Assembly: GCA_963790055.1 (NCBI GenBank)
Contig: CAWBND010000006.1
Span: 1,416-65,415 of the forward strand
From: an uncultured Bacillaceae bacterium
GTDB lineage: Bacteria; Bacillota; Bacilli; Bacillales; DSM-1321
DNA length: 64,000 nucleotides
Reading direction: 5' to 3'
The notes under the pieces were generated by a model. It searched no databases. It was not told where the DNA came from and saw only the letters and a list, made by a program, of their open reading frames with translations. Below are positions 45,059 through 51,905 of the stretch, piece after piece (within the stretch, counting starts at the first letter, position 1; each line of letters begins with the position of its first letter). The position numbers and the translations under genes were made by a program.

Positions 45059-45191
45059 CCGTTGCCAAAAACTTATAAAAATCTATAAGCCTTGTTTGCT
45101 TCTTGCTTCTACCTGTCCGATTTTGCCAGAGCTACTTTCGTTTGCTGTGACAGTCCACAAGCGTAAATTCGGATACAACGAATCCTACATA
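45059..45191 (-). ncRNA. TnpB omega/reRNA-like scaffold (IS607 type), copy 1
   Basis: TATGTA-hairpin-GAATTTACGCTTGTGGA...GTAGC...GGACA...GAAGCAAGAA, homologous to 50715-50862. Confidence 0.65.
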
Positions 45192-45231
45192 GTTGAGTTT
45201 TCTTGTAAGATGAAAGTTCTCAACTCTTTAT

Positions 45232-45328
45232 CTGACTTGGTTTTCGTCGATTTTTATTCCTATACACCCTCACGATTCTACTCGATGACTACACCACTTT
45301 CGCAATGTATGGGATTCATAATAGGCAT
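45232..45328 (-). ncRNA. Unidentified conserved structured RNA module, copy 1
   Basis: Helices with compensatory changes relative to 50934-51035. Confidence 0.65.
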
Positions 45329-45520
45329 ACTCATTTTACCAAATTTACAGATAACAAACAAGTGAATTGACTAACGGAGTTCACCTCCTTATAATAGTTT
45401 ATAGATATTTCTTAACTGTTTTTCCCCTCCTCAATGCTAATTTACCCAATTCCACCATTTTCTATTTATGCAAATACTGAAAAAGCCAACTCCCATTATA
45501 AAGAGTTGGCTTACAAATCA

Positions 45521-50508: not shown

Positions 50509-50706
50509 TCAAGAAGAATGTTTTGGATTATTAATGGCTGGCAGCATTCTTGATCCTGCCTTCATTTCACTGCCGCATAACGGACAAATATGTTCATCGT
50601 TGCTTGTAAAATTATCACGAATCCAACCTTTGCAATCATCGGACATGCATTCCCATACTTTTGTTTCCTCAGGAATGACTTCTTCCATATTATTTCGTCT
50701 ATACAT
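50509..50706 (-). CDS. Cold-inducible YdjO-like zinc-ribbon small protein
   Basis: WECxxxxCxGWIRxNF...CPLCG. Confidence 0.82.
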   Translation of the reverse strand: MYRRNNMEEVIPEETKVWECMSDDCKGWIRDNFTSNDEHICPLCGSEMKAGSRMLPAINNPKHSS

Positions 50707-50714
50707 TCATCTCA

Positions 50715-50862
50715 CTGCTACTAAAAACATAATCAAATGTAATCATCTGACTATGCCAGACGGTTTCCTGCTTCAACGTGTCCCGTCTCGCCAATTGCTC
50801 GCTACTACGGTTGGTATAACACTCCACAGGCGTAAATTCCGATGTAGCCCACCGTACACATA
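50715..50862 (-). ncRNA. TnpB omega/reRNA-like scaffold (IS607 type), copy 2
   Basis: Homologous to 45059-45191 with covarying hairpins. Confidence 0.65.
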
Positions 50863-50933
50863 TACAGATTAGTTAAGTTAATGTGTATATCTTCGTCCGT
50901 TAGTAGACTCTCCTTTCGTTAGATTTTTCAATT

Positions 50934-51035
50934 CCGCTTGATTTTCGCATTTAGGCACAATGTAGGCGACCATCACGGTTCTATCCGATGCAACCGTCAC
51001 TTTCGCAACGTCTTGGCACATTCACAACCTACACC
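50934..51035 (-). ncRNA. Unidentified conserved structured RNA module, copy 2
   Basis: Homologous to 45232-45328. Confidence 0.65.
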
Positions 51036-51698
51036 TCTGAAACGTTTGAATAGACTTAATGCAATTTTTTATCCTTTCACTTTTTACACCAGTGAAAAAG
51101 TAAAGTATAAAAAATCCTTTTCATTTGAGCGAAACGTAATCATTACGAACCGATATAGTGAAAAAAATCTACATCTATTATAACATATCTACATCCAACT
51201 ATTACAGAAATACGTTTGGAGTAATTTTTTAACCTACACCTAAAACAACGAAAGCCCTACCTCTCTTTCATCCATACGGTTCCTAGACCGCGCCTGTAAG
51301 AATCAGGTTAAAAAACAGGAAGCACATGTTTATTAAAACTAATCTTTCCTACTGTAACTCTAAATGAAAATTAAAATTAAAGAAAAGGGTACGAAGAAAT
51401 TTATGAAGATTATTTGTGGAGAAATAAAAATCTTTCTTAGTGCTTATGCATGGATAAGCCGCGCTCTTAATAAAAATGTTACTTTATAAAAAATCACTCT
51501 TCAATGAATCCTTTAAAACCATTCAGATACTATCTTATCATATAATTTACAATATGTAAATATTTTTCAAAACTATACCATCTAGCTCTGCTGATTTTTT
51601 GTTTATTCGTGTAAATTCATAATTTCACATAAATAAACAAAAAATTGAATATATAACATAGGTTTTATAAAAAAATAAAGAGGTGATGGACTCACCTC

Positions 51699-51905
51699 TC
51701 ATTTGAAAGAATTAAATTCAGTTTGAATTTTAGGAAGCTCCCGCATCTCCTCAATTAATTGCTCCCCACAAATAGGACATAGATAATTGGCAGAAGCAAA
51801 GTCTTTCCGCATCCATCCATTACACGTATCTGACTCACAAGCGTACACAACTGTGTTTTCTATAATTATTTCTGGTTCCTCTGAATTTCTTTTAGCAAAA
51901 TACAT
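51699..51905 (-). CDS. Cold-inducible YdjO-like zinc-ribbon small protein (paralog)
   Basis: CESDTCNGWMRKDF...CPICG; RBS AAGGAGG. Confidence 0.82.
   Translation of the reverse strand: MYFAKRNSEEPEIIIENTVVYACESDTCNGWMRKDFASANYLCPICGEQLIEEMRELPKIQTEFNSFK

What the first reader, a model, noticed from the sequence alone, without database searches (positions are those of the whole stretch)
50707..51269. Second, diverged omega-RNA element also ends at SD-to-start spacing, in front of a cold-shock-type gene
Seen: the right end ...TTTTAGTAGCAG is followed by 8 nt (TGAGATGA) and the ydjO-like ATG, with no proper SD in between. Its paralog at 51905 has AAGGAGG. Two left junctions ending in AG would rebuild an RBS: AAAGGAG at 50910-50916 (giving AAAGGAGTGAGATGAATG, element ~195 bp, omega-RNA only) or GAAAGAGAG at 51261-51269 (element ~546 bp including the RNA module). 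ATGATTACRTTT occurs near the right end and again at 51132-51143, like IS607 subterminal repeats. A TG-N-TATAAT promoter (~51177-51185) reads into the element. Inference: two independent insertions by different family members (GG vs AG core) with the same geometry within 6 kb argue for a genome-wide RBS-targeting strategy.
Basis: partly seen in the sequence, partly recalled or inferred. Interest (0 to 1): 0.75.

Follow-up and report, generated by a model that had tools for sequence, protein, structure and literature searches.

The report
Transposon carrying a spare ribosome-binding site
A gene-less IS607/TnpB guide-RNA transposon remnant has cut a small gene off from its ribosome-binding site, and the comparison shows that this transposon family lands there habitually and carries its own internal ribosome-binding site that RNA pairing with the element's end could bring next to the host start codon, which would let such insertions spare the host gene.

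Summary
The right junction is real. Near-identical relatives have the empty site AAGGAG|TGAGATGA-ATG, so an ORF-less IS607 element (RAGATH-18 guide RNA plus an undescribed ~100-nt module, ~330 bp) split ydjO's Shine-Dalgarno (SD) from its start. Both proposed left ends are wrong. GAAAGAGAG lies in the host BsrC sRNA. AAAGGAG (50910-50916) is internal, being conserved in a sister element. The true left end and host SD appear deleted near 51040-51064. RBS targeting holds: 31 of 33 AG-core right ends lie 5-11 nt before a start codon (22% for random AGGAG sites). The published TAM, AGGAG, is itself an SD. New here: across Bacillota these elements carry a strong SD followed by a complement of their last 9-13 nt, inside tnpB. 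It co-varies with the right end, keeps G-U pairs and freezes synonymous sites. Pairing would loop the element out and rebuild a split RBS (inferred, untested; spacing is long). The window's copy of the motif is weak and not significant alone. The scan had noted RBS targeting for the 45-kb neighbour; I found the internal SD pairing in neither its notes nor the papers searched.

The parts
50509..50706 (-). ydjO-family gene (65 aa), intact; 2 aa differ from the empty-allele relative
50695..50714 (-). Host flank: 8-nt SD-to-start spacer plus first codons; predicted 20-nt guide of the omega-RNA, matching the empty allele behind TAM AGGAG; no other target in the assembled genome (best site has 7 mismatches)
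50715..50734 (-). Element right end, terminal AG core at 50715-50716; 3' arm of the proposed long-range stem
50765..50830 (-). RAGATH-18 core (RF03064, 65.8 bits, above the 44.9 cut-off)
50715..50895 (-). omega/reRNA scaffold, 78-80% identical to the two tnpB-bearing siblings on C7 and C12; includes a stub of the last tnpB codons (50873-50895)
50894..50909 (-). Anti-right-end: 7-bp core (50900-50906) plus extension complementary to the right end, -9.2 kcal/mol; weak, p=0.12 on its own
50910..50916 (-). Element-borne SD AAAGGAG (anti-SD -12.9 kcal/mol), conserved in the G081 sister element; not the left junction
50935..51033 (-). Undescribed ~100-nt structured RNA module (closing stem, GAAA hairpin, bulged hairpin, final hairpin); found only in ORF-less elements; 8 of 16 consensus pairs show compensatory change; no Rfam match
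51034..51064 (-). Left-junction zone: probable inner left-end remnant (51034-51043) joined to host-like UTR (51044-51054); TAM, host SD and most of the left end missing
51064..51115 (-). Host 5'-UTR hairpin, with a homologous hairpin in empty alleles
51177..51185 (-). Host extended -10 motif (TGTTATAAT) of ydjO, conserved without the insert
51235..51321 (+).

Best explanation
This is an immobilised, ORF-less IS607-family element of the AGGAG-TAM lineage. SHOWN: it inserted at the AG of the ydjO SD without target duplication, and the window allele now lacks the host SD and a recognisable left end. INFERRED: these were lost in a later deletion, so the transposase can no longer excise it and rebuild the RBS. 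INFERRED from published systems: its omega-RNA can load a TnpB made in trans (two siblings keep the D-E-D RuvC triad) and would cut the empty allele. SHOWN at family level: elements carry a strong SD followed by a sequence complementary to their own last 9-13 nt, inside tnpB about 580-670 nt upstream, and deletion derivatives keep it. INFERRED: on the mRNA this pairing loops out the element and places the internal SD beside the host spacer and AUG. That is a portable split RBS like T4 genes 25 and 38, which would explain why RBS insertions survive. The window's AAAGGAG plus CTACTAA is a weaker version of that device and is the likeliest way ydjO could still be translated.
For: Empty alleles. 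31/33 ends at start spacing, against 22% for AGGAG sites and 44% for AGGAG outside ORFs. In an unbiased scan, the best complement of the right end within 1.4 kb lies at -579 to -607 (-511 in one deleted copy) in every AG element that keeps a long tnpB stretch, pairs to the terminal G, and follows an SD in the top 1% of windows. Own end beats the other family's end in 31/32 AG and 13/13 GG elements; 8/8 distant AG elements beat shuffles. 22 wobble-keeping and 0 pair-breaking transitions. Only 2 of 57 four-fold codon columns in 30 tnpB genes are at least 85% frozen, one in the SD and one in the anti-end. Pair probability 0.86-0.99 in sibling C12. Deletion derivatives L051, L104, L107 and the C16 mini-element keep the motif. 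Three RAGATH-18 elements without a nearby start lack it (L145, L155, L158). The last 21 scaffold nt are disordered and dispensable for cleavage (PMC11061315). ORF-less copies sit before the single ligA of G081 and before a ribonucleotide-reductase small chain.
Against: Nominal SD-to-AUG spacing after looping is about 11-20 nt (6-9 plus 5-11), longer than the usual optimum and than T4's 5 and 11. The window copy alone is not significant (p=0.12). Its pairing probability is about 0.45 only when the module is constrained, about 0.16 at 15 C and near 0 unconstrained; in the G081 sister RNAfold buries the anti-end in another stem. G081's ligA carries frameshifts, probably assembly indels. Elements are related, so counts overstate independence, and the wobble tally used sites chosen by a score that rewards G-U. 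A weak terminator-like hairpin lies at 50744-50762.
Confidence: 0.58

Rival explanations
1. The long-range pairing is real but regulates the guide RNA, not host translation. The anti-end inside tnpB sequesters the scaffold 3' end until ribosomes on tnpB or processing release it, and the SD recruits or pauses ribosomes there. Downstream host genes, ydjO included, are largely silenced and mostly dispensable.
For: The motif sits in the tnpB coding sequence and pairs with the nucleotides next to the guide. Most genes behind tnpB-bearing AG elements look non-essential by their sequences (my reading). Spacing is long. Competing folds at the omega-RNA 3' end are known for IStrons (10.1101/2023.11.20.567912).
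Against: The motif is kept in elements with no tnpB, and even in the C16 mini-element that has no omega-RNA. The SD has no standard start codon of its own nearby. It is missing from elements that are not in front of starts.
Confidence: 0.2
2. The window's copy is a dead relic. The family device exists, but here it has decayed, ydjO translation is strongly reduced, and the gene is simply young enough, or redundant enough with its paralog at 51699-51905, to look intact.
For: Weak stem and competing folds. Left end lost. The UTR patch 51213-51100 is only about 86% identical to the empty allele, against 97-99% on both sides. Two amino-acid changes against two silent ones.
Against: The 24-nt SD block is identical in a sister element from another family that is 86% identical overall. 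The same short architecture (SD, 3 nt, 7-bp stem, short overhang) occurs in tnpB elements L157 and L160. The ORF is intact.
Confidence: 0.35
3. The SD plus anti-end is a DNA-level feature: an internal pseudo left end (TAM-like purines, 6-9 nt, inverted repeat) bound by the serine transposase.
For: True left ends have a similar layout: AGGAG, 6-8 nt, imperfect inverted repeat. IS607 ends are known to carry offset imperfect inverted repeats (PMC6188088).
Against: Changes keep G-U pairs and bulges, which is a single-strand signature. IS607 moves as double-stranded DNA. The purine tract matches the 16S tail (up to -17.7 kcal/mol) better than the TAM.
Confidence: 0.1
4. The module is a small ribozyme that removes the element from the mRNA, IStron-like, and rejoins SD and start.
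For: The module is structured, co-varying and specific to ORF-less elements. IStrons with AG/CAG ends exist (CsISt1, PMC4227781).
Against: No group I core or ribozyme family matches. tnpB-bearing elements land at RBSs without the module. In this allele the host SD is gone, so splicing at the ends would not restore it.
Confidence: 0.07
5. One reading: a 195-bp or 546-bp element whose DNA excision rebuilds the RBS.
For: Joining 50910-50916 to the spacer would give a sequence close to the empty allele.
Against: The first junction is internal to a conserved element block and lacks the left-end consensus. The second is in host BsrC.
Confidence: 0.03

Closest known systems
ISFba1-type IS607 TnpB with RAGATH-18-derived reRNA (Ren et al. 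2024, PMC11061315)
   Same: RAGATH-18 scaffold of similar length, TAM AGGAG next to the left end in siblings, AG terminal dinucleotide, guide taken from the flank.
   Different: No tnpA or tnpB here; left end lost; extra 5' RNA module. In the passages I read, the paper notes neither that the TAM is an SD nor an internal SD with an anti-end.
PATE-like ORF-less omega-RNA elements of IS200/IS605 (Meers et al., PMC10055086)
   Same: Non-autonomous, guide-RNA-only, dependent on TnpB and TnpA in trans.
   Different: IS607 (serine recombinase) lineage, purine-rich target, no terminal palindromes, added module and internal SD.
Group B IStrons (BcISt1, CboIStron, CsISt1; PMC4227781; 10.1101/2023.11.20.567912)
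   Same: IS607 ends; RNA-level rescue of host expression; a long-range inverted-repeat stem near the 3' end; conflict between guide RNA and another RNA fold.
   Different: No group I intron; the proposed rescue is by folding, not splicing; the target is the RBS, not coding sequence.
Split RBS of phage T4 genes 25 and 38 (reviewed in PMC3014915)
   Same: A stem between SD and AUG shortens the working spacing.
   Different: There a local hairpin of about 16-17 nt in fixed genes; here a 200-670-nt loop supplied by a mobile element, with longer residual spacing.

Membership tests
IS607 / RAGATH-18 TnpB elements | RAGATH-18 reRNA at the right end | tested here: met
   65.8 bits, cut-off 44.9
IS607 / RAGATH-18 TnpB elements | Insertion behind a G-rich TAM at a shared dinucleotide, no target duplication | tested here: met
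   Empty allele AAGGAG|TGAG; element ends in AG; siblings have AGGAG before the left end
IS607 / RAGATH-18 TnpB elements | Left end with subterminal motifs and adjacent TAM in this copy | tested here: not met
   Consensus left end absent; similarity to the sister's left end not significant, p=0.12
IS607 / RAGATH-18 TnpB elements | tnpA and tnpB genes in the element | tested here: not met
   Only a stub of the last tnpB codons. Siblings on C7 and C12 have full tnpB with D-E-D. Only a truncated tnpA in the 62%-complete assembly. Filed as a non-autonomous derivative.
IS607 / RAGATH-18 TnpB elements | Guide RNA expressed and directing cleavage | not testable with these tools
PATE-like non-autonomous omega-RNA elements | Both ends intact, so mobilisable in trans | tested here: not met
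   Met by the G081 sister (about 366 bp), not by this copy
IStrons | Group I intron core at the left end | tested here: not met
   No Rfam intron match up to E=10; module about 100 nt
IStrons | Self-splicing that rejoins the flanks | not testable with these tools
   Needs RT-PCR
Split RBS (T4 gene 25/38 type) | Conserved stem between SD and AUG | tested here: met
   Family level
Split RBS (T4 gene 25/38 type) | That stem forms in this copy | tested here: inconclusive
   -9.2 kcal/mol, p=0.12, pair probability 0 to 0.8 depending on the context folded
Split RBS (T4 gene 25/38 type) | Residual spacing of 5-11 nt | tested here: not met
   About 11-14 nt here, about 11-20 nt in the family
Split RBS (T4 gene 25/38 type) | Translation depends on the stem | not testable with these tools
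   Needs a reporter
TldR (nuclease-dead TnpB repressors) | Inactivated RuvC in the cognate protein | tested here: not met
   Siblings keep all three acidic motifs

The most novel reading that the evidence does not exclude
RAGATH-18/IS607 transposons across Bacillota are specialist RBS parasites. They use the SD as target and TAM, and neutralise the damage with a portable split RBS written into the tnpB coding sequence: a long-range RNA stem presents the element's own SD to the host start codon. The same 3' nucleotides alternate between rescuing host translation and flanking the guide RNA. This would be a splicing-free counterpart of IStrons.
Probability: 0.55. Interest if true: 0.88.

Novelty: new variant of a known kind. 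Interest (0 to 1): 0.76.

Why it matters
It would explain how a widespread RNA-guided transposon family tolerates landing in ribosome-binding sites, even in front of ligA, without an intron. It would give the unexplained AGGAG TAM and the disordered, dispensable last 21 nt of the reRNA a biological meaning. It would be a natural case of translation initiation across a loop of several hundred nucleotides, testable with a simple reporter. It also shows an RNA-level constraint hidden in tnpB codons, which matters when these nucleases are recoded for editing.

Tried and rejected
546-bp and 195-bp boundaries: rejected. ATGATTACRTTT as a subterminal repeat: chance level. Group I R/S-like motifs near 51036 and 50890: rejected; the second is the tnpB stop region and Rfam gives no intron. 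The 47-codon ORF at 50878-51021: no Pfam match, and its ATG is ACG in the sister. Translational coupling from the right end: a stop sits directly before the ydjO ATG and the short in-frame ORF ending there has no SD (read from the sequence). Other filled alleles of this locus: none found. More AG-type ORF-less copies: none in metagenome or viral scans, plasmids, phages, 66 family genomes or 400 class genomes; one in 400 order genomes. Donor for the diverged UTR patch: none better than the empty-allele sister. Descent of the window's SD block from the tnpB-internal motif: the best alignment lands there in 16 of 36 elements, about 10% expected, but single scores are mostly not significant. Paper searches for RBS targeting or a split RBS in IS607 found nothing to the point; the library lacks most subscription journals.

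Full report
What is there. The minus strand from 51400 to 50500 holds the host BsrC sRNA on the opposite strand (51235-51321), an extended -10 motif (51177-51185), a UTR hairpin, a structured module, a RAGATH-18 RNA (50765-50830), a right end finishing at 50715, an 8-nt spacer and a 65-aa YdjO gene. The genome is a 62%-complete assembly with 8 RAGATH-18 matches. Two of them, on C7 and C12, share the same right end and carry full tnpB genes with intact RuvC motifs. Only a truncated IS607 tnpA was found.

Right junction. All 24 genus relatives have an SD, nearly always AAGGAG, directly before a near-identical spacer and the ydjO start. Contigs about 95% identical to the window read AAGGAG|TGAGATGA-ATG. 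The element therefore went in at the AG of the SD, with no duplication. In the filled allele the 22 nt before the ATG pair with the 16S tail no better than a third of random sequences (-5.2, against -9.9 kcal/mol when empty).

Left junction. BsrC and the promoter are present in empty alleles, which removes the 546-bp model. A complete sister element of about 366 bp was found in genome G081, from another family of the order. It has AAAGGAG then a left end, the same module, the same 24-nt block containing the internal AAAGGAG, and the same right end. It is 86% identical to the window from 51039 to 50715. So 50910-50916 is internal and the 195-bp model fails. The window has neither the left-end consensus of the AG lineage nor a TAM. 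Host homology runs to about 51064, and 51044-51054 matches a relative's UTR just before its SD (weak after several tests). My reconstruction, which is inferred, is a deletion of the host SD and most of the left end, possibly at a TCAAA microhomology near 51047. The copy is then about 330 bp and cannot excise cleanly.

The module (50935-51033) is shared with three GG-core elements in this genome and 14 loci in Clostridium, Melghirimyces, Sporosarcina, Gottfriedia and others. Wherever the flank could be read, it lies directly before an omega-RNA region in an ORF-less element. Eight of 16 consensus pairs change on both sides. It has no Rfam match and was absent from the tnpB-bearing elements searched. 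Its function is not established. In GG elements it follows an internal extended -10, so it is probably the 5' end of the transcript.

RBS targeting. Eight of nine right ends in this genome lie 7-11 nt before a start codon. Right ends collected by sequence alone across the order gave 31 of 33 distinct sites with a start at 5-11 nt. The same rule fits 22% of AGGAG sites in this genome (binomial p about 1e-18) and 44% of AGGAG sites outside long ORFs. The baseline uses a crude gene model and the sites are not fully independent. Ren et al. found TAMs AGGAG and GAGGG (PMC11061315), which are SD sequences, so part of the bias is built in. The rest needs loss of coding insertions and survival of RBS insertions. 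That raises the question of how the genes stay translated, since the G081 sister sits before the only ligA found in a 98%-complete genome (that assembly shows frameshifts in ligA and in the next gene).

A spare SD. An unbiased search for the best complement of the last 16 nt within 1.4 kb upstream landed, in every AG element that keeps a long tnpB stretch, 579-607 nt upstream inside tnpB (511 nt in one deleted copy). It paired up to the terminal G and lay just behind one of the strongest anti-SD matches of the region (-12 to -17.7 kcal/mol, top 1% of windows). GG-core elements have the same layout with their own complement. Each family's motif fits its own end better than the other's in 31/32 and 13/13 cases, and the pattern extends to distant Bacillota. 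Changes in the stem keep G-U pairs: 22 wobble-keeping against 0 pair-breaking transitions, with a selection bias I note. In 30 aligned tnpB genes only 2 of 57 four-fold codon columns are frozen, one in the SD and one in the anti-end, while the amino acids there vary. Elements that lost almost all of tnpB kept this piece (L051, L104, L107), as did a mini-element on C16 with no omega-RNA. Three RAGATH-18 elements not in front of a start lack it. In the ISFba1 structure the last 21 scaffold nt are disordered and dispensable, so they are free for another job.

Mechanism. On an mRNA the anti-end would pair with the right end and loop out 200-670 nt, leaving the internal SD on one side of the stem and the host spacer and AUG on the other. 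T4 genes 25 and 38 use such a split site (PMC3014915). Shown: the insertion site, the bias, and a conserved complementarity with RNA-type variation beside a conserved SD. Inferred: that the stem forms in vivo, that ribosomes use it, and that TnpB from siblings guards the site. The main objection is spacing: about 11-20 nt after looping, against 5 and 11 in T4.

This copy. Its motif is the short type, also seen in L157 and L160: SD, 3 nt, 7-bp stem, short overhang, 8-nt spacer. The duplex is -9.2 kcal/mol and not significant alone (p=0.12). Pair probability is about 0.8 without the module, 0.45 with the module constrained and near 0 unconstrained; in G081 the fold buries it. So the family case is strong and the case for this copy is open. 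I put it near even whether ydjO is still translated this way.

Comparison and verdict. The element is a non-autonomous, left-truncated derivative of the ISFba1-type IS607 family. It is PATE-like in lifestyle and is not an IStron. Earlier scan notes had the module (e1-5458880) and RBS targeting by the neighbouring element (e1-5458879). A word search of the notes and five paper searches did not turn up the internal SD pairing; the library is incomplete. New variant of a known kind, with a mechanism that would be new if the reporter test holds. Interest 0.76.

Noticed in passing
window 45059-45427 (-): The GG-core neighbour has the same device: an internal AAGGAGGTGA followed by a complement of its own right end, about 320 nt upstream.
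   Followed up: partly
G000 C16:48184 (-): Mini-element with a left-end-like stretch, internal SD, anti-end and right end but no module or omega-RNA; no start codon within 15 nt by my rule.
   Followed up: partly
L106:1156-1757 (G081): Complete ORF-less AG element between pcrA and the single ligA, splitting the ligA RBS; the assembly has frameshifts in ligA and in the next gene.
   Followed up: partly
Relaxed selection or a recombination patch.
   Followed up: partly
L057:3930-3990 and many G000 contigs: A ~60-nt REP-like repeat with dozens of genomic copies sits just before the SD in the sister's empty allele, and again behind the paralog's terminator; both are absent from the window.
   Followed up: partly
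window 51235-51321 (+): BsrC sRNA between the two ydjO paralogs, with a C-rich single-stranded stretch that looks like an anti-SD; an 11-nt stretch at its 5' end recurs at 51026-51036.
   Followed up: no
L068-L070, L072, L074, L079: Clostridium tepidiprofundi has at least six near-identical ORF-less module elements, each ending shortly before a start codon: a recent expansion and a good test system.
   Followed up: partly
L145, L155, L158: RAGATH-18 elements ending in CGG that are not in front of start codons and lack the SD/anti-end; possibly IStron-like or with other targets.
   Followed up: no
window 50744-50762 (-): Weak terminator-like hairpin inside the right end could lower read-through into ydjO.
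   Followed up: no
G000 C1:5905 (-): A tnpB-bearing GG element splits the RBS of an ssb-like gene.
   Followed up: no
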